Assembly: GCA_000004695.1 (NCBI GenBank)
Contig: CM000153.2
Span: forward strand, 4,032,001-4,096,000
Reading direction: 5' to 3'
Source of the DNA: Dictyostelium discoideum
Lineage: Eukaryota
DNA length: 64,000 bases
Under the pieces are notes generated by a model, which saw nothing but the letters and a program-made list of their open reading frames with translations, made no database searches and was not told where the DNA came from. The translations under genes were made by a program, and so were the position numbers. This document shows, piece by piece, positions 23,037-58,282 of this stretch (the first letter of the stretch is position 1; each line of letters opens with the position of its first letter).

Positions 23037-23352
23037 AAAAAAAAAAAAAAAAAAAAAAAATTATAATTAAAAAAGTATGAAAATAAAAACCTAAATGAAG
23101 CATTAAAAAAAAAAATAAAAAATAAATACTGTTTTTTTAATCTTTTTATTATAACCTTTTTCAGAGTCACGAAAGATATTCTCTTTGTATGTACACACAA
23201 AAAAATATTTACATTGTTGGTTGTTATTTTCCCAAATTTTATAAATTTGTAAAAAAAAAAAAAAGATTAATATTTTTTTGATCATTGGGTTGTTCAACTG
23301 GATTTAGATTCAAATATAGATGAAATTGGGTTAGTTTATAATATATTTTTTA

Positions 23353-23829
23353 TTAATTAAAACATCTTTGACCAGCAGATGGATTATAACAAGTATTTCC
23401 ACATGCTTGGTAACCAAATGAACAAATTACACCACCTGGATAACATTTTTGACCTGATGATGGACTATAACAAGATCTACCACATGCCTCATAACCAAAT
23501 GAACAAATTATACCACCTGGATAACATTTTTGACCTGACGATGGACTATAACAAGAATTACCACATGCTTGATAACCAAATGAACAAATTACACCACCTG
23601 GATTACATTTTTGACCCGATGATGGACTATAGCAATTATTTCCACATGCTTCATAACCAAATGAGCAAACTACACCACCTGGATAGCATTTTTGGCCTGA
23701 TGATGGACTATAGCAGTTATTTCCACAAGCTTGATAACCAAATGAACAAACTACATCACTTGCACTTTCAACATTTTTTAAAAAAAATAAAATGCCAAAT
23801 AAAAAAAATAAAATTGAAATTAATTTCAT
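23353..23829 (-). CDS. Secreted cysteine-rich protein (158 aa) made of six tandem 27-aa modules CSFGY[QE]ACGN[NST]CY[SN]PS[SA]GQ[KR]C[YN]PGG[VI][VI]
   Basis: A single ATG ORF. Its N-terminal signal peptide is MKLISILFFLFGILFFLKNVESA. Six near-identical 81-bp/27-aa units carry 4 Cys each (24 Cys total) with conserved spacing C-x7-C-x3-C-x8-C. Module identity is also high at the DNA level. The overlapping plus-strand ORF 23379..23864 is an antisense shadow. Confidence 0.7.
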   Translation of the reverse strand: MKLISILFFLFGILFFLKNVESASDVVCSFGYQACGNNCYSPSSGQKCYPGGVVCSFGYEACGNNCYSPSSGQKCNPGGVICSFGYQACGNSCYSPSSGQKCYPGGIICSFGYEACGRSCYSPSSGQKCYPGGVICSFGYQACGNTCYNPSAGQRCFN

Positions 23830-24337
23830 TATTAATAATTGTTATCACACTGTTTTTCAAATAAAAAAAAATTTTAATTTATACTTTTTGTTTTTTTTTA
23901 ATATGTAAAATTCAACAACTACAACAACAAAAGTTAATAATAATATTATTTATTTATGTTCATTCGTGTAAAAAATATAGTGGCTATTAATTTAATAAAT
24001 TTTAAGAAATAAAGATTTCAAGATTTTTTTAAAATTTTTTTAAATTTTTTTATCATCTGATAATTGATATTTATTTGTTTTTGATTTTTGAATTTTTAAT
24101 GTCGATTGGATTTAGTATTGTATCATTTTAATATAATTCATTTAATAATAATGAATGACCATATGAAAAAAATTATTTATATTATTATTTAGACTATTAT
24201 TTAAACTGTTTTTATCATTATTATGACTATTTTTTTCAACACTACTATTTTTATTATTTTCATTTTTAATTTCATTTTTCGGAGTCATGAGATATTTTAG
24301 ATATTTTTAAAAATAATTTTTTTATTTTTTTAAATAT

Positions 24338-24445
24338 TTTCGGGAAAAAAAAAAAATATTTAATATTTTCGGGAAAAAAAAAAAAATATTTAATATTTTC
24401 GGGAAAAAAAAAAAAAAATTATCACACACCCAACCACAATAAAAA
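24338..24445 (+). promoter_or_regulatory. Proximal promoter of the PLB-like gene: three direct repeats of atatttaatattttcgggaaaaaaaaaaaa, then a C/A-rich box cacacacccaaccaca 10 nt upstream of the ATG
   Basis: The repeat is seen at 24340-24368, 24369-24398 and 24399-24425. The CA/C-rich box resembles Dictyostelium G-box/CAE elements (GBF targets) on the opposite strand. That assignment is an inference. Confidence 0.4.
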
Positions 24446-46434: not shown

Positions 46435-49400
46435 ATGAAATCAAATACCAATATTAGGGTTTTACTCGTGTCTGGTTTAATTTTGATTTTTATATTTTTA
46501 GGAATAAAATTCGAATTTATAAATAAAAATAATAATGATAAAATTGGAATAAATAGAAAATTAGAATTTAGTTATTTTACTAAAAATAATAATAATAATA
46601 ATAATAATAACTTTAAACAAGATCAATTAAAAAATAAAAAAGATAAAAGAATTTTATTAAAAAATGAAATAATTGATACAAACATTAAAAAGAATATTAA
46701 AAAAAATAATCAAAAGAATAATAATGAAGAAATTTTCCCAAATTTTATTTCTAGATTATTAAAATCAAATGATGATATGGAAATCCAACAATTTACATAT
46801 AGAAAGAGTCATTATATAGTTCAATTTAAAGATCATATAAATGATGAAACTAGAGAACAATTTAAGCAATTTTTAATTAATACTGATATTGTGTTAGATG
46901 AACAACCATATCAATCACATATAGTTAATTATATACCACATGATAGTTTCTTAGTATTAATGAATGATGAACAAAGTAATTTATTATCAAGTAAAGAATG
47001 GGTATCTTGGATTGGTGAGTTTGAACCATCAAATAAAATACATTTAAATTATAATGAAAAATCAATTGGATTGCCAGTTTATATTAAATTAAGTGATTCA
47101 ACAAATTCATTAATTCAAAGATGGGAGAATACATTAAATTCAATTTTAACATCATATAATTCAAAAGTTAAATTAACATTAATTAATCAAAAGAAATTAA
47201 AATCAATTGTATATTGTAATGATGAATCATCATCACAATCATCATGTTCATTAGTTAGTTCAGAAAAGTTAGTTTATCAATGGATTTCAGAACAAAGTGA
47301 AAGTAATTATATTGAAAGATCAGAGAAATTTCAAACTGCAAATAGATTATCACCAAAGGCAATTTTCGGTACAAAAGATACATTGGTTAATAATGATAGA
47401 ATTGATATTCCATTGAGAGGTAAAGGTCAGATATTGAGTATTGCCGATACTGGTTTAGATGGTAGCCATTGTTTCTTTTCAGATTCAAATAATCCAATAC
47501 CATATAATAGTGTAAATTTAAATCATAGAAAAGTTGTAACTTATATTGGTTCTCTACATGATAATGAGGATTATGTCGATGGTCACGGTACACATGTTTG
47601 TGGTTCTGCAGCAGGTGCACCAGAGGATTCTTCATTGGCTATTTCATCATTTAGTGGTCTTGCAACTGATGCAAAGATTGCATTCTTTGATTTAGCATCC
47701 GACCCAAGTAATAATGAACCAGTTCCACCAGAAGATTATAGCCAATTATATCAGCCATTATATAATGCAGGTGCAAGAGTACATGGTGATTCTTGGGGTT
47801 CTCTTTCAATACAAGGTTATTTGGGTAGTTATTCCGATGATGCTGGTAGTATTGATGATTTCCTTTACACTCATCCAGATTTCATTATTCTTAGAGCTGC
47901 TGGTAATAATGAACAATATTCATCATTGCTATCACAAGCAACAGCCAAAAATGTAATTACAGTTGGTGCCGAACAAACTACTCACGAAAGTTATACCACT
48001 GATGCATTGGAATATTCAAATTTTGAAACAGTAGCAAAGAGTACATTAAATTCATTATGCCAATCATTTGATGATAAATATTGTACATATACAACTGCTC
48101 AATGTTGTACAGAATATTCAACTGTTAAAGGTTTATCAGGCTGTTGTACATCTTATATTAAAAATTCATACGCTTCAATATTTTCCTCACAACCAGAATT
48201 ATATAATGAGAATAATATTTGTTCATTCTCTTCAAAAGGTCCAACACATGATGGTAGATTGAAACCTGATATAGTTGCCCCTGGTCAATATATTACATCG
48301 GCAAGATCAAATGGTGCAAATACAACCGATCAGTGTGGTGATGGTTCTTTACCAAATACAAATGCACTATTATCAGAATCTGGTACATCAATGGCAACAC
48401 CATTAGCAACAGCAGCAACAACAATTCTTAGACAATATTTAGTTGATGGTTATTATCCAACTGGTTCAATTGTAGAATCAAATAAATTACAACCAACTGG
48501 ATCATTATTAAAAGCATTAATGATTAATAATGCTCAGTTATTAAATGGTACATTCCCATTATCATCAACAAATACAAATCCATCAAATGCAGTATTTGAT
48601 ACATTTGCAGGTGCAAATTTTGTTCAAGGTTGGGGTTCACTTAGAATGAGTGAATGGTTATATGTTGAATCATCAGGTGTTAAACCAAAACCATCAAGAT
48701 GGGTTGGTATTGGTGAATTAGGTAAAGATAAAAAAGCATCAAATTGGAAAGAATATAGTTTATCAACTGGTCAAAATGTTTCATATTGTTTCACATATAA
48801 ACCATCATCATCAGGTAGTAATAGTGGTGGTATACCAAGAATTGTTGCAACATTAGTTTGGACAGATCCACCATCATATTCTGGTGCAAAATTAAATTTA
48901 GTAAATAATTTAGATTTAACAATGACAAATACTGAATCAGAATTTATATTTTATTCAAATTCTGGTGGTTCATCATATAATGGTACAAAAGGTACAACAT
49001 TACCACTACAAGATTCAATTAATAATGTTGAAGGTATAATCTATACACCAATTAATACCAAATCAGAAATTTCTTTTAGATTTATAATTGCAGGTACCAA
49101 TATACCAATTGGACCACAAAATTTCTCATTTGTATTCCATGGTGAAAATGGTGAATTTGATTGGGCTGATAGTTGTATGCAATGTAATCCAGATGATACA
49201 CAACCTTGTTTCATTGAAAATGGTGTTGGTTCTCAAACTTGTGGCGATGATTATTTATGGGGTCGTTGTTTAGTACAATCTTGTAATAACAATTATAATT
49301 ATAATTCAATCTCTGATAAATGTTCAAAATTCTTATCATATAATTATATCGTTATCATTGTTGCAGGTGGTACAATGTCATTGATTATCACTGTATTAAT

Positions 49401-51912
49401 TTTAATTAAATATATGGAATATAAAGAAAATGGTAATAAATTTAGTTTAAAAGAATTTTTTAGTGGAGTTTTAGGTACTGGTAAAAATGTTAGTGGTGGT
49501 GGTAAAGGTGGTAGTGGTGGTAGTGGTAGTGGTAGTGGTACACTTAAAGATGGGACTATTGATGATGGTACAGGTATTCATGTTAGACCAAAACCAAAAG
49601 ATGCACCAGTTACACCACCAGATCTTTACAGTTTATTATCACCATTCATTATAGAGATAACAATTTCAACAGCTTGCTCGTTGGTGGCAACAGCAGCAAG
49701 TATCTTACAACCATATTATATTGGTCAAATTATTCAAGATATTCCAACAACTAAAGGTATTGGTGATTTAAGAGATCAATTTATTATTATATTTTTATTG
49801 GCCTTATTGGAATTTGTTTTCTCAACAATCAGTTCTTGGATCTCTGGTATTGTAAATGAAAAGATGGTAATGAGATTACAAAATAAAGTATTCCGTGCAT
49901 TGATTGCTCAAGATATGGGTTTTTTCCAAAAGAATAGTGCTGCAGTTTTAATGAATGTTTTAATCGTTGATACACCAATGTTAAGATCATCACTCACTGG
50001 TATACTATTATCAGTTTCAGTTGGTATTTGTAAATTTGTTGGTAGTTTGGTATTCATTTTCACAATTTCATGGAAACTTTCATTAGCATTCTTTGCAACC
50101 GTACCCGTATTGGCAATTGTAACACAAGTTCAATCTAAATTCACTAAAAGATTAACACGTAGATTATTATTCCACAATTCAAAAGCATCACAACATGGTC
50201 AAGAATCAATGGTCAATATGCATGTAGTTTCAAATTATTGTAAACAAGATAGAGAGATTGCAAAATATTCAGAGCAATTAATGATGGTTTTCCAAATTTC
50301 AAGAAGATTAATTATTAATAATACCTTTGCAGCTTCAATTAAATGGTTAATGGTTGAATCATTAGCTTTCATTATTCTTTATTTCGGTGCTTATCTTGCA
50401 ATTCAAAAGCAATTCACTGTTGGTCTTTTAGTATCATTCTCTTTATACATTGGTTATGTAATTGATTCTTCAACAACATTATTTGGTGTTTATTCAAGTT
50501 ATGTTCAATGTTTAGCTTCTGCAACTAGAGTATTCTTAATTTTAAGATCTGCACCAAGAAAAAGAACAACTTTAGAGGAAGAAGAACTTGATAATATTAT
50601 TGATACTAATCAAGATAATAATAATAACAATAATAATGATGATATTAGTGATAGTAGTAGTGATGATGATGATGATAATAATAATAATAAAAATAGTAAA
50701 AACAATAAAACTAAAAGTGGTGAATCGGATGATAGCTCAAGTGAAGATGCTGAATATAAAAAGAACAAAAATAAACGTAATAATGGTAAAATGACTACAA
50801 AACTATCAAATTCACCACCATTAGTAGGTGAAGGTATAGATAATAATAATAATAATAATAATGATAATAATATAAATGATGATAATAATCAACAAGATCC
50901 AAATAATAATAATAATGAAATTGATGATGATGGTGATGATGATGGTGATGATGATGATGAAGGTGAAGATGAAAATAATAATAATAATAATAATGATGAT
51001 CCAAATGATAATAATGGAATTGAAATGTTAACAGAAAAACAACTTAGAAAAAGAAAAAGACAAATGAAAAAAGAATTTTATAAGAAAACTGGTATTTCAT
51101 GTTTAGAATTAAATTTAATTCCATCAGCTTATACAGAGTTAACAGAATGTAGAGGTGAAATTGAATTTAAGAATGTATCATTTTGTTATCCATCAAGAGC
51201 AGATGTTGGTGTATTGTATAATATTGATTTGAAATTTGAATCTGGTAAATGCTATGGTTTGGTTGGTCCATCGGGTAGTGGCAAATCAACATTGTTGGAA
51301 TTGATTTCCAGATTCTATAGTCTACATCCATCAGGTGGTAAAATTTACATGGATGGTATTGATATTGCAAAAATCAGACCAAGTAATCTTAGAAGTTTCG
51401 TTACAAACGTTCATCAACATCCTTTCCTATTCGATGCTACAATTAGTGAAAACATTGGTTACGCATTGGATAATCCAACTCAAGAGGATATCATTGAAGC
51501 CGCCAAATTGGCAAATGCTCATGAATTCATTCAATCATTACCAAAACAATATGATACAATGTTAACTGATGGTGGTAATTTATCAGGTGGTCAAAAGAAA
51601 AGAATTGCAGTAGCTCGTGCAATTTGTGCAAAGAGAAAGATTATGTTATTGGATGAAATCACTGCTGAATTAGATCCAGAATCTGAAGAAGCTATCAATA
51701 AAAGTATTAAAGTTTTAACTCGAGGTCATACCGTTGTAATGGTAGCTCATAAAGTTGCTGCTGTCCGTGATTGTGATAAAATCTTTGTTTTAGATAAAGG
51801 TCAAATCGTTGAACAAGGTACTCATAATCAATTAATGGCTAAAAAAGGAAAATATTATAGAATGTTTGCTTTTTCTGAAGATGATGATTATGCTCCATTA
51901 TTAGTTTTATAA
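46435..51912 (+). CDS. tagD: Serine protease/ABC transporter fusion protein, Tag family copy 1 (1825 aa): N-terminal subtilisin-like S8 protease domain, a TM segment, an ABC transmembrane domain, and a C-terminal nucleotide-binding domain
   Basis: The signal/anchor is [22 protein letters not shown]. The subtilase catalytic triad motifs are present: [12 protein letters not shown] (Asp), [11 protein letters not shown] (His), and GTSMATP (Ser). A six-helix ABC TMD follows after about 980 aa. An Asp/Asn-rich linker of about 190 aa precedes the NBD, which has Walker [14 protein letters not shown], signature [14 protein letters not shown], and Walker [12 protein letters not shown]. It is a single ORF. 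The family identification is confident. The paralog name rests only on my recollection of the length and is tentative. Confidence 0.8.
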
Positions 51913-53056: not shown

Positions 53057-53333
53057 ATGAAATTTCATTTTTCATCTAACAAATTATTGTTGATATCAGG
53101 TTTAATTTTATTAGTATTGGTAATAGGCATAAAGTTAGATATATTTTTAAGTAGTAAAAGTACCGAATATATAAAATTCAATAATAATAATAATCATTTT
53201 AAAAGAGATAAAAGAATTTTATTACATAATGAAATAATTGATACAAATAATAAGCCATCAATTAAAAATAATCAAATATTTATTAATGATAATGATAATA
53301 ATGAAAATATATCACCAATTTTATTAAGAATAT

Positions 53334-53366
<33 letters not shown>

Positions 53367-56300
53367 GTGATGATAAATCAATTTATAAAAAGAATCATTA
53401 TATAGTTCAATTTAAAGATCGTATAAATGATGAAACTAGAGAACAATTGAAGGAATTTTTAATTGGTACTGATATTGTATTGGATGAGCAACCATATCAA
53501 TCACATATAGTTCACTATATACCACATGATAGTTTCTTAGTATTAATGACTCAAGAACAAAGTGTATTATTATCAAGTAAAGAATGGGTATCTTGGATTG
53601 GTGAATTTGAACCATCAAATAAAATACATTTAAATTATAATGAAAAATCAATTGGATTACCAGTTTATATTATATTAAGTGATTCAACAAATTCATTAAT
53701 TCAAAGATGGGAGAATACATTAAATTCAATTTTAAAATCATATAATTCAAAAGTTAAATTAACATTAATTAATCAAAAGAAATTAAAGTCAATTGTATAT
53801 TGTAATGATGAATCACCATCACCGTCATGTTCGTTAATTAATTCAGAAAAGTTAGTTTACCAATGGATTTCAGAACAAAGTGAAAGTAATTTCATTGAAA
53901 GATCAGAGAAATTTCAAACTGCAAATAGATTATCACCAAAGGTAGTTTTCGGTACAAAAGATACATTGGTTAATAATGATAGGGTTGATATTCCATTGAG
54001 AGGTAAAGGTCAGATATTGAGTATTGCTGATACTGGTTTAGATGGTAGCCATTGTTTCTTTTCAGATTCAAAGTATCCAATACCATTGAATAGTGTAAAT
54101 TTAAATCATAGAAAAGTTGTAACTTATATTACCACATCAACAAGCGACGATAGTGATAAAGTGGATGGTCACGGTACACATATTTGTGGTTCTGCAGCAG
54201 GTACTCCAGAGGATTCTTCAGTTAATATTTCATCATTTAGTGGTCTTGCAACTGATGCAAAGATTGCATTCTTTGATTTGGCAAGTGGTTCATCAAGTTT
54301 GACACCTCCATCGGATTTGAAACAATTATATCAACCATTATATGACGCAGGTGCAAGAGTGCATTGTGATTCTTGGGGTTCTGTATCAGTAGAGGGGTAT
54401 ACAGGTAGTTATTCATCAGACACTGCTTCAATTGATGATTTCCTTTTCACTCATCCAGATTTCATCATTCTTAGAGCTGCTGGTAACAACGAGCAATACC
54501 TATCACTACTCACTCAATCCACTGCAAAGAATGTTATTACCGTTGGTGCTCATCAAACAATTCATGAAAATTATTTAACTGATGGTCCAAATTATATAAA
54601 TTATCAATCATCTGTCGATATAAATCAAGAGTTAATATGTGATTTCGATAGCAGATATTGCAATTACACAACTGCCCAATGTTGCTTAGAATCAAACGCA
54701 ACCACTGGTTTAGCAAGTTGTTGTCCTACTTTACTTAGAAAAAGTGTAATTGACGCTGCAAATACTCAACCATTATTATACAATGAGAATAATATTTGTT
54801 CATTCTCATCAAAAGGTCCAACACATGATGGTAGAATGAAACCTGATTTAGTTGCCCCTGGTGAATATATTACATCGGCAAGATCAAATGGTGCCAATAC
54901 AACAGACCAATGTGGTGATGGCTCTTTACCAAATACAAATGCATTATTGGCGATATCTGGTACATCAATGGCAACCTCATTTGCAGCAGCAGCAACAACA
55001 ATTCTTAGACAATATTTAGTTGATGGTTATTATCCAACTGGTTCAATTGTAGAATCAAATAAATTACAACCAACTGGATCATTATTAAAAGCATTAATGA
55101 TTAATAATGCTCAGTTATTAAATGGTACATTTCAATTGATTACATCATCAAGTATTACATATCCATCAAACCAAGTTTTTGAAAATTTTGCAGGTGCAAG
55201 TTTAGTTCAAGGTTGGGGTGCTATTAGAATGAGTAATTGGTTACATGTTGTCAATAATAATAATAGTAATAATAATAATAAAACATCAGATGGTATAACT
55301 AAATTTGTTGGTATTGGTGGATTAGATTTAAGATTAGTGAAACCAAATCAATGGAAAGAAGAAAGTTTATCAACTGGTCAAAATACATCATATTGTTTCA
55401 CATATAAACCATCATCATCAAGTAGTAATAGTGGTAATAATATACCAAGAGTTGTTGCAACATTAGTTTGGACAGATCCACCATCATATGCAGGTGCAAA
55501 ATTTAATTTAGTAAATAATTTAGATTTAACAATGATTTATTATCGTGATAATGGTTCAACTATATTTTATTCTAATCAAGGTGGTTCATCATTTTTAGGA
55601 TTAGCACCAACTCAAGATACATTGAATAATGTTGAAGGTATAGTTCATAATCCAACGGAACCAATGACTTATAGATTCATGGTAGCGGGTACAAACGTAC
55701 CAATGGGACCACAGAATTTCTCATTCGTATTTCATGGTGAAAATGGTGAGTTTGAATGGGCTGATAAATGTCCACAATGCAGTCCAGGTCAAGTATTAGC
55801 ATGTCCAGTTGAAAATGGTATTGGTACTCAACTTTGTACAAGTGATTTACAATGGTCAAGTTGTTTAATTCAGTCATGTGATAATAATTATAATTATAAT
55901 TCAATTAAAAAAAGATGTGATAAATTCTTATCATACAACTATATCATTATGATTGTTGCAGGTGGTACAATGCTATTGATTATCTTTATTTTGTTACTCA
56001 TTAAATATCAAGAATATAAAGAGAGTAAAAAAGATAGTTTCCGTAGATTCGACGATGGTACAGGTATTTTCGTTAGACCAAAGGATAAAGACGCAAAAGT
56101 TTCATTGGCTGACCTTTATAATTTAATTTCACCATTCATTATTGAATTGGCGATTTCAACAGCATGTTCATTGGTTTCAACAGCAGCAAGTATCCTACAG
56201 CCATTCTATATTGGTCAAATTATTAATGATATACCAACTGCAAAACATATTGGTGATTTCAAGAGTCAATTCATTTTAATCTTCATATTGGCAGTTATAG

Positions 56301-58282
56301 AATTTGTTTTCTCAACAATCAGTTCATGGATATCTGGTATTGTAAATGAAAAGATGGTAATGAGATTACAAAATAAAGTATTCCGTGCATTGATTGCTCA
56401 AGATATGGGTTTTTTCCAAAAGAATAATGCTGCAATTTTAATGAATGTTTTAATTTCTGATACTCCAATGTTAAGATCGGCACTCACTGGTATATTATTA
56501 TCAATTGCAACTGGTTTATGTAAATTTGTTGGTAGTTTAGTATTCATTTTCACAATTTCATGGAAACTTTCATTGGTATTCTTTGCAACCGTACCAGTAT
56601 TGGCATTTATCACTCAAATCCAATCACAATTCACTAAAAGATTAACTAGAGCATTATTATTCTACAATTCAAAAGCATCACAACATGGTCAAGAATCAAT
56701 GGTTAATATGCATGTAGTTACTAATTATTGTAGACAAGATAAAGAAATCATTAAATATACTGATAATTTAAATAATGTTTTCCAAACCGCTAGAAGATTA
56801 ATCATTAATAATACTTTGGCCTCTTCAATTAAATGGTTAATGGTTGAATCATTGGCTTTCATTATTCTTTACTATGGTGCTTATCTTGCAATTCAAAAGC
56901 AATTCACTGTTGGTCTTTTAATTTCTTTCTGTTTATACATTGGTTATGTTATTGATTCAACAACAACATTATTTGGTGTTTATGTAAGTTATGTTCAATC
57001 TCAAGCTTCTGCAACTAGAGTTTTCATGATTTTAAGATCTGCACCAAGAAAAAGAACAACTTTAGAAGAAGAAGAAGCTGATAGAAATAATGGTTTAGGT
57101 GGTGGTGGTGGTAATAATAATAACAATGACGATGATGATGATGATGATAATTATAATGGTAAAGGTAATGATAATGGTAAAGGTAGTGATGATCCAAATA
57201 ATAATAATAATAATACAACATTAGAAAATATTGATGATAATGGTGAATTAACAACAGTGCAACCAGTTGAATTAACAAAAAAACAATTAAAGAAACAAAA
57301 AGAAAAAGAACAAAAAGAATATTTCAAGAGAACTGGTATTTCAGTTGTTGAAATGTCATTAATTCCATCAAGTTATATTGAATTAACAGATTGTAAAGGT
57401 GAAATTGAATTTAAGAATGTATCATTCCGTTATCCAACTAGACCAGATGTACAAGTTTTACATAATATCAATATGAAATTTGAAACTGGTAAATGTTATG
57501 GTTTGGTTGGTCCTTCAGGTAGTGGTAAATCAACATTGTTGGAATTGATTTCAAAATTCTATCCACTTCGTGATGGTGGAAATATCATAATGGATGATAT
57601 TGATATTGCAAATATTAGACCAAACAATCTTAGAGGTTTCGTTACATGTGTTCATCAAAATCCTTACTTATTCGATGCTTCAATTAAAGATAACATTGGC
57701 TACGCATTGGATAATCCAACTATTGAAGAGGTTATTGAAGCTGCCAAATTGGCATATGCTCACGAATTCATTAAAGATTTACCACAACAATATGATACCG
57801 TCTTAGGTTCAGCTGGTAGTTTGTTATCAGGTGGTCAAAAGAAAAGAATTGCAATTGCTCGTGCAATTTGTGCAAAGAGAAAGATTATGTTATTGGATGA
57901 AATCACTGCTGAATTAGATCCAGAATCCGAAGAAGCCATTACTCAAAGTATTAAAGTTTTAACTCAAGGTCATACCGTTGTAATGGTAGCTCATAAAGTT
58001 GCTGCTGTCCGTGATTGTGATAAAATCTTTGTTTTAGATAAAGGTTATTTAGTTGAAGAGGGTACTCATGATGAACTCATGGAAAGAAAAGGAAAATATC
58101 ATAGAATGTTTAATAATGAAAAAGATGAGGAAGAATTATTAAATAATTTAGGTTTACCATCTAATAATGAAACTAATAATGAAAATAATAATGAAAATAA
58201 TAATAATAATAACAATAATAATAATAATAATAATAATAATAACGATGATAATAATAATCAAGTTGTTGGGGAACAAGTTTAA
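53057..58282 (+). CDS. tagC: Serine protease/ABC transporter fusion protein, Tag family copy 2 (1741 aa)
   Basis: Same architecture and about 75-80% identity to copy 1: [30 protein letters not shown], Walker [39 protein letters not shown]. It is a single ORF. The paralog name is tentative and rests only on my recollection of the length. Confidence 0.8.

What the first reader, a model, noticed from the sequence alone, without database searches (positions are those of the whole stretch)
23353..23829. Secreted 24-Cys protein built from six near-identical 27-aa modules (CSFGYxACGNxCYSPSSGQKCYPGG)
It has a signal peptide and then a strictly periodic 81-bp/27-aa array with 4 Cys per module (C-x7-C-x3-C-x8-C), rich in Gly/Tyr/Pro. 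The high DNA-level identity between units points to recent expansion or concerted evolution. The module does not match any Cys-repeat family I can name (not EGF, not TNFR, not the Gly/Ser-rich hssA type). It is a candidate for a small extracellular matrix, spore-coat or defence peptide array, and may be processed into repeated peptides.
Basis: seen in the sequence. Interest (0 to 1): 0.65.

Follow-up and report, generated by a model that had tools for sequence, protein, structure and literature searches.

The report
Secreted CBM52-like cysteine-repeat protein, Dictyostelium
This is a real Dictyostelium discoideum gene for a small secreted protein made of five disulfide-rich 27-residue modules, and those modules are a divergent form of a known fungal glucan-binding module (CBM52), so it is most likely an ordinary sugar-polymer-binding protein, not a new kind of repeat.

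Summary
The ORF at 23353-23829 (minus strand) is real, intronless and under purifying selection. It encodes a 158-aa protein with a signal peptide followed by tandem 27-aa modules. There are five modules, not six (the last has 25 aa). There are 20 Cys, not 24. The spacing is C-x6-C-x3-C-x8-C-x6, not C-x7.

The window is D. discoideum AX4. The module is not an orphan. A profile built from it finds 186 cluster representatives in bacteria, dictyostelids, chytrids, tardigrades and rotifers. Fifty of the best 149 match Pfam PF10645 (Carb_bind = CBM52, the beta-1,3-glucan-binding module of S. pombe Eng1 and M. oryzae GBP). Profile-profile comparison gives 98.4% probability. The window protein itself scores below Pfam's threshold (18.7 against 25 bits). 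It belongs to a 6-3-8 'PSxGQ' loop variant that Pfam barely covers.

AlphaFold2 gives a confident model (pLDDT 89.7) of a continuous stack of beta-hairpins with no solved-structure match. The gene has paralogs that share a conserved promoter, and it is absent from the syntenic site in D. citrinum. Only module 4 looks like a recent addition.

Best reading: a secreted, multivalent polysaccharide-binding rod. The ligand and the expression pattern are untested.

The parts
23353..23829 (-). Complete intronless CDS of 158 aa (stop codon at 23353-23355). The predicted mature protein has 136 aa, 14.0 kDa, pI 8.1 and 14.7% Cys.
   Evidence: ORF list and translation. GC is 32.9% against 15-17% in the flanks. 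dN/dS is 0.22-0.34 against paralogs, and differences concentrate at third codon positions.
23764..23829 (-). Signal peptide, aa 1-22 (MKLISILFFLFGILFFLKNVES). The cleavage site is inferred.
   Evidence: Hydrophobic core with mean Kyte-Doolittle 3.0. The same N-terminus occurs in the paralogs at L001 14291, 15021 and 17947. No signal-peptide predictor was run.
23674..23754 (-). Module 1 (aa 26-52), VVCSFGYQACGNNCYSPSSGQKCYPGG
   Evidence: closest to module 1 of the paralogs, 68-69 of 75 nt
23593..23673 (-). Module 2 (aa 53-79), VVCSFGYEACGNNCYSPSSGQKCNPGG
23512..23592 (-). Module 3 (aa 80-106), VICSFGYQACGNSCYSPSSGQKCYPGG
   Evidence: 74/75 and 72/75 nt identical to module 3 of the two 131-aa paralogs
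23431..23511 (-). Module 4 (aa 107-133), IICSFGYEACGRSCYSPSSGQKCYPGG. This is the extra module compared with the 4-module paralogs and is probably a duplicate of module 3.
   Evidence: Closest to window module 3 and paralog module 3, 69-70 of 75 nt. It has the lowest dS within the gene, 0.137 against module 3.
23356..23430 (-). Module 5 (aa 134-158, 25 aa), VICSFGYQACGNTCYNPSAGQRCFN. This is the C-terminal module.
   Evidence: orthologous to the last module of the paralogs, 70/75 and 66/75 nt
23859..23889 (-). Putative core promoter: a GTATAAAT box (23877-23884) followed by a T-run, about 30-60 bp upstream of the ATG.
   Evidence: Conserved in the upstream regions of all four paralogs; coordinates. 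Promoter function is inferred.
23944..24001 (-). Conserved upstream element (AATTTATTAAATTAATAGCCACTATATTTTTTACACGAATGAAC...), shared by the family.
   Evidence: Nearly invariant block in the alignment of four paralog upstream regions, within otherwise AT-rich non-coding DNA; coordinates. A regulatory role is inferred.
23139..24437 (.). Segment of about 1.3 kb that carries the gene and its promoter and is absent from the syntenic PIP5K-to-PLB interval of D. citrinum. The core at 23301-24053 is homologous to the paralog loci.
   Evidence: The flanks align to L009, but the interval there is only about 176 bp and tblastn finds no gene. Homology to L001 paralog loci is 84-90%.

Best explanation
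The locus is a functional single-exon gene of Dictyostelium discoideum AX4.

Its product is exported through a signal peptide. It folds into a rigid, elongated stack of short beta-hairpins locked by ten intramolecular disulfides, two per module, probably C1-C3 and C2-C4.

Each 27-residue module is a divergent copy of the unit that makes up the CBM52 / Pfam PF10645 carbohydrate-binding domain. It belongs to a loop variant (C-x6-C-x3-C-x8-C with a PSxGQ motif).

Five modules in a row, each carrying three or four aromatic residues (F, Y, Y, Y), would give a multivalent surface for binding a repetitive glycan outside the cell. The likeliest ligand is a beta-glucan: cellulose of the amoeba's own matrix, or wall or capsule polysaccharide of its prey.

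The gene is one of a small family of paralogs with three to five modules that share a promoter. This copy is a dispersed duplicate that gained one module.

Shown: the gene, the selection on it, the repeat anatomy, homology to PF10645, a confident predicted fold, the paralogy and the insertion.

Inferred: the signal-peptide cleavage site, the disulfide pairing, carbohydrate binding, the ligand, and when it is expressed.
For: A real coding gene:
- ORF and composition.
- dN/dS is 0.06-0.52 between modules and 0.22-0.40 between paralogs.
- TATA box, T-run and a 58-bp upstream element are conserved across four paralogs.

Organism: the neighbouring phospholipase-B-like gene is 100% identical to a D. 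discoideum AX4 protein.

Family:
- PF10645 is the top Pfam hit for the window protein (18.7 bits) and for four of its five relatives scanned (8.9-24.4 bits, model positions 2-47 of 49).
- An exhaustive HMMER search with a two-module profile finds 186 representatives at E<=1e-3 and 79 at E<=1e-10.
- Many of these are bona fide PF10645 proteins: P0082 160.8 bits, P0054 97.6, P0141 72.7, P0121 60.9, P0069 59.
- Fifty of 149 hits match PF10645 at E<=0.01, and no other family matches more than 8.
- hhalign of a Dictyostelium-only profile against PF10645-positive segments gives 98.4% probability and E 8.8e-15 over 45 columns.

Function of the family:
- The C-terminal module of Eng1 binds beta-1,3-glucan (PMC7388972).
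- Elsewhere the modules are fused to astacin proteases, a CBM96 and CarboxypepD_reg domains, as expected of a targeting or binding module.

Fold:
- The AlphaFold2 single-sequence model has mean pLDDT 89.7 and pTM 0.64. Strands sit at xxC2 / xC3Y / xC4x / xxC1', so one hairpin bridges adjacent modules.
- A bona fide CBM52 protein (P0141) shows the same strand placement relative to the Cys residues, at lower confidence.

Disulfide pairing: C1 and C3 are lost together in three related modules that keep C2 and C4.
Against: - The window protein does not reach Pfam's gathering score (18.7 against 25 bits).
- Its C3-C4 loop is one residue longer than in canonical CBM52, and the PSxGQ motif is absent from all 269 canonical 6-3-7 modules examined. 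Ligand specificity therefore cannot simply be transferred.
- Only one aromatic position (Y/F after C3) is conserved across the whole family.
- No binding, expression or localisation data were obtained.
- Dictyostelium is not known to make beta-1,3-glucan (my own knowledge).
- Bacterial gene neighbourhoods are not conserved: GT2 plus TPR genes in one case, a lytic transglycosylase in another. They give no independent functional support.
- The PF10645-positive segments used for hhalign were chosen from hits to a profile related to the query, so that test is not fully independent.
Confidence: 0.5

Rival explanations
1. It is a purely structural matrix protein of the sheath, stalk tube or spore coat. 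It would work like other disulfide-rich tandem-module proteins (CREMP, DUMPY, Dictyostelium EcmA/B and spore-coat proteins) by forming fibres or cross-links, without specific glycan recognition.
For: The predicted fold is an extended rod of 2-disulfide modules. The analogy is to CREMP, DPY and EGF-like 2-disulfide tandem modules in structural proteins (PMC12723725). The weak fold matches are all to fibrous repeat proteins.
Against: The protein is only 14 kDa, and four Cys per module leave none free for intermolecular links. The Cys spacing differs from the Cx4Cx5Cx8C of CREMP and spore-coat type modules, and no Pfam hit to EGF, FOLN or Dictyostelium matrix repeats was found. The homologous family is a carbohydrate-binding module.
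Confidence: 0.2
2. It is a defence or antimicrobial protein, or a precursor cut into five 27-residue cysteine-stabilised peptides.
Confidence: 0.08
3. It is an extracellular signalling ligand or binding partner for a protein (growth-factor-like), not a lectin.
For: Eight family members give weak hits to the IGFL family, and some are annotated tenascin-like. A shared, conserved promoter suggests tight regulation.
Against: The IGFL and galaxin hits are weak, and far fewer members match them than match PF10645. Nothing identifies a receptor. The family occurs widely in bacteria as small secreted proteins, which fits a generic binding module better than a eukaryotic signal.
Confidence: 0.1
4. It is not a functional gene: a chance ORF, a decaying duplicate, or the antisense 161-aa ORF (23379-23864, plus strand) is the real product.
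For: The antisense frame is also open across the repeat. The copy is a lineage-specific insertion. No expression data were obtained.
Against: Differences between modules and between paralogs concentrate at third positions of the minus-strand frame, and dN/dS is well below 1. The Cys framework is conserved from bacteria to animals. The promoter is conserved. The antisense product has no credible family match, and antisense ORFs appear in every paralog simply because the repeat lacks stops in that frame.
Confidence: 0.03

Closest known systems
[quoted passage not shown]
   Same: The order of four Cys per unit is the same. The core C-x6-C-G-x2-C-[YF]-x-P is shared. The units are tandemly arranged. 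Profile-profile probability is 98.4%. The window-derived profile retrieves many bona fide members. Predicted strand placement relative to the Cys residues is similar.
   Different: The window protein is below the Pfam threshold (18.7 against 25 bits). The C3-C4 loop has 8 residues, not 7, and carries a PSxGQ motif never seen in canonical 6-3-7 modules. The protein is not attached to a glycoside hydrolase. The ligand is untested.
Magnaporthe oryzae GBP (MGG_05232), a secreted protein consisting of a signal peptide plus CBM52
   Same: The architecture is the same in principle: a signal peptide followed only by CBM52-type modules. GBP is an extracellular, wall-associated beta-1,3-glucan binder (bioRxiv 10.1101/2025.07.03.663104).
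   Different: GBP is fungal and acts on the fungus's own beta-1,3-glucan wall. Dictyostelium has a cellulose-based matrix. The sequences were not compared directly here.
Small secreted bacterial proteins with two to four modules (for example Burkholderiaceae MAG MFM9879616.1 = P0003, and a Hydrogenophaga MAG protein)
   Same: They share the x8 C3-C4 loop and the PSxG[QE] motif, a signal peptide, and a size of 100-160 aa. By motif they are the closest non-dictyostelid relatives.
   Different: Most have a 7-residue C2-C3 loop (class 6-7-8), although some are 6-3-8. All are uncharacterised. Their gene context is not conserved.
CREMP, DPY and EGF-like 2-disulfide tandem modules (PDB 9PGB, 1OIG)
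   Same: They are tandem 4-Cys modules of about 25 residues, each a small beta-hairpin with two disulfides (C1-C3, C2-C4), forming extended extracellular proteins (PMC12723725).
   Different: The Cys spacing is different (Cx4Cx5Cx8C or Cx5Cx5Cx4C). Their modules are independent beads joined by flexible linkers, whereas the model here is continuous. There is no sequence or fold match.
[quoted passage not shown]
   Same: They are small secreted Cys-rich amoebozoan proteins that bind cellulose and locate to the cyst wall (PMC6541295). This is a functional precedent in a related lineage.
   Different: Their 8 Cys are spread over a much larger domain (19-24 kDa for two domains). They are reported as unique to Acanthamoeba.

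Membership tests
CBM52 / Pfam PF10645 (Carb_bind) | Whole-protein score at or above Pfam's gathering threshold (25 bits) | tested here: not met
   The window protein scores 18.7 bits, E 0.002. Paralogs score 24.4, 21.9, 16.5 and 8.9 bits. PF10645 is nonetheless the best-scoring family for five of the six proteins scanned (the sixth, bacterial P0003, matched none).
CBM52 / Pfam PF10645 (Carb_bind) | Profile-level homology to bona fide PF10645 domains | tested here: met
   hhalign gives 98.4% probability and E 8.8e-15 over 45 columns. The window-derived profile retrieves PF10645 proteins at E 1e-5 to 1e-14 among 1.84 billion sequences. Fifty of 149 hits match PF10645. Caveat: the comparison set was drawn from hits to a related profile.
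CBM52 / Pfam PF10645 (Carb_bind) | Cysteine framework C-x6-C-x3-C-x7-C (x5-6) with G after C2, Y/F after C3 and P two residues further on | tested here: inconclusive
   The C-x6-C-x3-C part, the G, the Y and the P are all present. The C3-C4 loop has 8 residues, not 7, and carries PSxGQ. Among hit modules, 269 are class 6-3-7 (none with PSxG), 90 are 6-3-8 and 97 are 6-7-8.
CBM52 / Pfam PF10645 (Carb_bind) | Same fold as a bona fide member | tested here: inconclusive
CBM52 / Pfam PF10645 (Carb_bind) | Binds beta-1,3-glucan | not testable with these tools
   Known for Eng1 and M. oryzae GBP from the literature.
EGF-like / follistatin-N / CREMP-type 2-disulfide modules | Cys spacing Cx4Cx5Cx8C and a Pfam EGF or FOLN match | tested here: not met
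   The spacing here is Cx6Cx3Cx8C. No EGF, FOLN or spore-coat family appears in Pfam scans even at E<=10. The definition is taken from PMC12723725.
Granulin | 12-Cys module with CC doublets, and a significant fold match | tested here: not met
   The protein has 14.7% Cys in a strict 4-Cys periodic framework. The family definition is from my own knowledge.
Acanthamoeba Leo 8-Cys lectins | Sequence homology to the Leo 8-Cys domain | not tested
Only the description in PMC6541295 was read.

The most novel reading that the evidence does not exclude
The 6-3-8 / 6-7-8 'PSxGQ' modules form a separate mini-domain family that Pfam does not capture. Their distribution is patchy: soil and freshwater beta- and alpha-proteobacteria, dictyostelids, bdelloid rotifers and tardigrades. 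That pattern could reflect transfer between bacteria and the micro-eukaryotes that eat or host them. On this reading the Dictyostelium paralogs, including this young, D. discoideum-lineage-specific five-module copy, would recognise a bacterial or prey surface polysaccharide (prey capture, or handling of Burkholderia-type symbionts) and would not bind the amoeba's own matrix.
Probability: 0.1. Interest if true: 0.55.

Novelty: new variant of a known kind. Interest (0 to 1): 0.3.

Why it matters
This assigns a likely role (extracellular glycan binding) and a family (CBM52-like) to a set of uncharacterised small secreted Dictyostelium proteins. It also shows that the CBM52 unit, usually treated as fungal, belongs to a much wider family of 4-Cys hairpin modules reaching into bacteria, amoebae, tardigrades and rotifers. 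One loop variant (x8, PSxGQ) is missed by current Pfam thresholds, and no experimental structure exists. If the protein binds cellulose or a prey glycan it would be a compact, multivalent probe and a new matrix or prey-recognition component in a model organism. If not, it is one more hypothetical secreted protein.

Tried and rejected
- PDB sequence search found nothing, even at E<=10.
- The AFDB50 library was not available.
- Word-indexed homology searches returned only 3 and 2 proteins. The exhaustive profile search was needed.
- Exact look-ups of the window's own proteins failed, so the AX4 gene identifier and any expression data could not be traced.
- Bacterial gene context was examined as a functional clue. 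GT2 (chitin-synthase-like) and TPR genes lie downstream of P0003. The Hydrogenophaga homolog sits next to a lytic transglycosylase and a bacterioferritin-like gene, and the genome scan gave only 3 loci. The context is not conserved, so I dropped it.
- Covariation of Cys loss as a route to disulfide pairing gave only one informative pattern: C1 and C3 lost together in three related proteins. HMM-based tabulation was uninformative because local alignments were truncated.
- P0014 in the hit list is a false positive (a YDTSVGKKV repeat) and was excluded.
- CREMP/EGF-type and granulin membership were rejected on Cys spacing and the absence of matches.
- Literature searches for a described Dictyostelium protein of this type found none.

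Full report
OBSERVATION

The window is AT-rich (23% GC). It comes from Dictyostelium discoideum AX4: the adjacent phospholipase-B-like ORF is 100% identical to the AX4 protein on a 5.45-Mb contig.

An ATG-to-TAA ORF of 158 aa lies at 23353-23829 on the minus strand. Tandem Repeats Finder reports an 81-bp period at 23361-23759, with 4.9 copies, 87% matches and score 564.

Translation gives a hydrophobic N-terminus (MKLISILFFLFGILFFLKNVESA) followed by modules of 27 aa. There are five modules, at aa 26-52, 53-79, 80-106, 107-133 and 134-158, and the last has 25 aa. There are 20 Cys. The spacing is C-x6-C-x3-C-x8-C, then x6 to the next module. The coordinates, the period and the signal-peptide-like start are right.

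The units are 74-93% identical at DNA level. The predicted mature protein has 136 aa, 14.0 kDa and pI 8.06. Its composition is 14.7% Cys, 16.9% Gly, 15.4% Ser and 9.6% Tyr. It has no dibasic sites and no N-x-S/T sequons.

IS IT A GENE?

- The ORF has 32.9% GC against 15-17% in its flanks, and GC3 is 7.5%.
- Differences between modules and between paralogs concentrate at third codon positions of the minus-strand frame (13 of 26, 18 of 36 and 19 of 33).
- Nei-Gojobori dN/dS is 0.06-0.52 between modules and 0.22-0.40 between paralogs.
- The antisense 161-aa ORF (23379-23864, plus strand) is a by-product of a repeat that lacks stops in that frame. The same thing occurs at every paralog, and the product has no credible family match.

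PARALOGS, PROMOTER AND HISTORY

A cluster in Dictyostelium cf. discoideum (L001) holds several relatives, interleaved with cofilin and copine genes:
- two 131-aa proteins with four modules, 86-88% identical to the window protein;
- a divergent 104-aa protein with three modules (P0002);
- a mis-modelled copy (P0001);
- a fragment.

The upstream regions of four family members share a GTATAAAT box followed by a T-run (window 23859-23889) and a 58-bp element (window 23944-24001). This conservation sits within otherwise AT-rich non-coding DNA.

Module-by-module DNA identities show positional orthology, not homogenisation within a gene. Window module 3 is 74/75 and 72/75 identical to module 3 of the two paralogs. 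Window module 5 matches their last module (70/75 and 66/75). Window module 4 is closest to module 3 (69-70/75) and has the lowest dS against it (0.137). The array of at least four modules is therefore old, and the window copy gained one module by duplicating module 3. One caveat applies: L001 comes from a different isolate or species, so these comparisons mix paralogy with species divergence.

In D. citrinum the orthologous PIP5K and phospholipase-B genes are adjacent. Only about 176 bp lie between the aligned blocks, and tblastn finds no family member there. Window 23139-24437 is thus a lineage-specific segment of about 1.3 kb. Its core, 23301-24053, is 84-90% identical to the paralog loci, promoter included. 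It is a dispersed duplicate; less likely, D. citrinum lost the gene.

WHAT FAMILY?

Pfam gives only a sub-threshold hit to PF10645 Carb_bind (18.7 bits, E 0.002, threshold 25). Of the five relatives scanned, four give the same family as their top hit; the bacterial P0003 matches none. P0001 reaches 24.4 bits over model positions 2-47 of 49.

I built a two-module profile from the window, P0001, P0002 and a bacterial homolog (A1) and searched 1.84 billion cluster representatives exhaustively. It found 186 proteins at E<=1e-3 and 79 at E<=1e-10. The hits include:
- many small secreted bacterial and metagenomic proteins with two to four modules;
- dictyostelid proteins, among them Heterostelium album PPL_04718;
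- chytrid proteins from Chytriomyces hyalinus;
- tardigrade proteins, including astacin fusions;
- a rotifer protein.

Many hits are bona fide PF10645 members: P0082 160.8 bits, P0054 97.6, P0141 72.7, P0121 60.9, P0069 59, P0142 54.3, P0113 54.1 and others. Across the 149 retained hits, 50 match PF10645 at E<=0.01. The next family (IGFL) matches 8. hhalign of a Dictyostelium-only profile (A2) against PF10645-positive segments (A3) gives 98.4% probability and E 8.8e-15 over 45 columns.

The 49-position Pfam model spans about 1.7 modules and starts at C2.

The family splits by loop lengths:
- 269 modules of class 6-3-7, the canonical CBM52 type, none with PSxG;
- 97 of class 6-7-8, mostly bacterial, 51 with PSxG;
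- 90 of class 6-3-8, found in Dictyostelium, bacteria and a rotifer, 30 with PSxG.

The window protein is of the 6-3-8 PSxGQ type, which Pfam largely fails to cover.

WHAT IS KNOWN ABOUT CBM52?

PF10645 is CBM52. The M. oryzae protein GBP (MGG_05232) consists of a signal peptide plus CBM52. [quoted passage not shown] The C-terminal region of S. pombe Eng1 is a carbohydrate-binding module for beta-1,3-glucan chains (PMC7388972, citing Martin-Cuadrado et al. 2008).

STRUCTURE

AlphaFold2 without an alignment gives mean pLDDT 89.7 and pTM 0.64. Each module contributes two short hairpins: QAC-GN-NCY around C2 and C3, and KCY-PGG-VVC around C4 and the next module's C1. A 3-10 turn sits at PSS. The second hairpin bridges modules, so the protein is predicted to be one continuous rod, not independent beads.

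Three related modules have lost C1 and C3 together while keeping C2 and C4. This hints at C1-C3/C2-C4 pairing, the same connectivity as in CREMP, DPY and EGF-type 2-disulfide modules (PMC12723725). Those families differ in Cys spacing.

MECHANISM

The most likely mechanism is a secreted rod locked by ten disulfides, presenting five CBM52-like units with 19 aromatic residues as a multivalent binder of a repetitive glycan. Carbohydrate binding is inferred from family membership only. The ligand could be cellulose of the Dictyostelium matrix or a prey polysaccharide, and it is open because the loop variant differs from characterised CBM52s. A functional precedent in another amoebozoan is the Cys-rich Leo lectins, which bind cellulose in Acanthamoeba cyst walls (PMC6541295). 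Homology to them was not tested.

The rivals are a purely structural role, a defence peptide or processed precursor, a signalling ligand, and a non-functional ORF. They are less well supported for the reasons given in their entries.

Bacterial gene neighbourhoods are not conserved and add nothing.

VERDICT

The finding is real but more ordinary than proposed. It is a divergent, stand-alone, tandem CBM52-like protein that belongs to a dictyostelid paralog family. It is not a novel Cys-repeat class, and it is not a peptide precursor. Expression and ligand remain untested.

Noticed in passing
window 23379-23864 (+): An antisense ORF of 161 aa runs across the whole repeat. Equivalent antisense ORFs exist at every paralog in L001. 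It is a by-product of a repeat unit that has no stop codons in that frame, not a second gene.
   Followed up: yes
window 23944-24001 and 23859-23889; L001 upstream of 14291, 15021 and 17947: A 58-bp upstream element and a GTATAAAT box with a T-run are conserved among four paralogs at two loci. This suggests co-regulation of the family. The binding factor and the expression pattern are unknown.
   Followed up: partly
window 23139-24437 against L009 7817-7992: D. citrinum lacks this gene at the syntenic position between the PIP5K-like and phospholipase-B-like genes. The AX4 copy sits in a segment of about 1.3 kb that is specific to the lineage.
   Followed up: yes
window 24333-24420: A 30-bp unit (AATATTTTCGGGAAAAAAAAAAAAATATTT) is repeated three times in tandem at 96% identity, just upstream of the start of the phospholipase-B-like gene (24446). 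Its purpose is unknown. It may be a promoter element.
   Followed up: no
window 46435-51912 (+) and 53057-58282 (+): Two large adjacent ORFs each combine a subtilase domain with ABC-transporter membrane and ATPase domains. This is the architecture of the Dictyostelium TagB/TagC-type protease-transporter fusions.
   Followed up: partly
P0088, P0090, P0098, P0128, P0022 (hits): A group of proteins without a signal peptide carries a conserved N-terminal domain of about 130 aa with no Pfam match (it contains GCLC and CCGK motifs), followed by two of the Cys modules. The architecture is uncharacterised.
   Followed up: no
L002 8001-11360: In a Burkholderiaceae MAG the three-module homolog lies directly upstream of a GT2 (chitin/cellulose-synthase-like) gene and a TPR gene. 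The Hydrogenophaga homolog (L006 5812-6291) does not share this arrangement.
   Followed up: partly
P0011, P0107 (tardigrade proteins): Astacin metalloproteases in tardigrades carry long C-terminal arrays of these modules. P0005 and P0054 also give sub-threshold hits to the coral Galaxin_repeat family, which hints at a link between CBM52-like and galaxin-like repeats.
   Followed up: no
window gene against L001 paralogs, module 3: Module 3 is 96-99% identical at DNA level between copies at different loci (74/75, 73/75 and 72/75), while the other modules are 88-93% identical. This could reflect gene conversion or stronger constraint on the central module.
   Followed up: no
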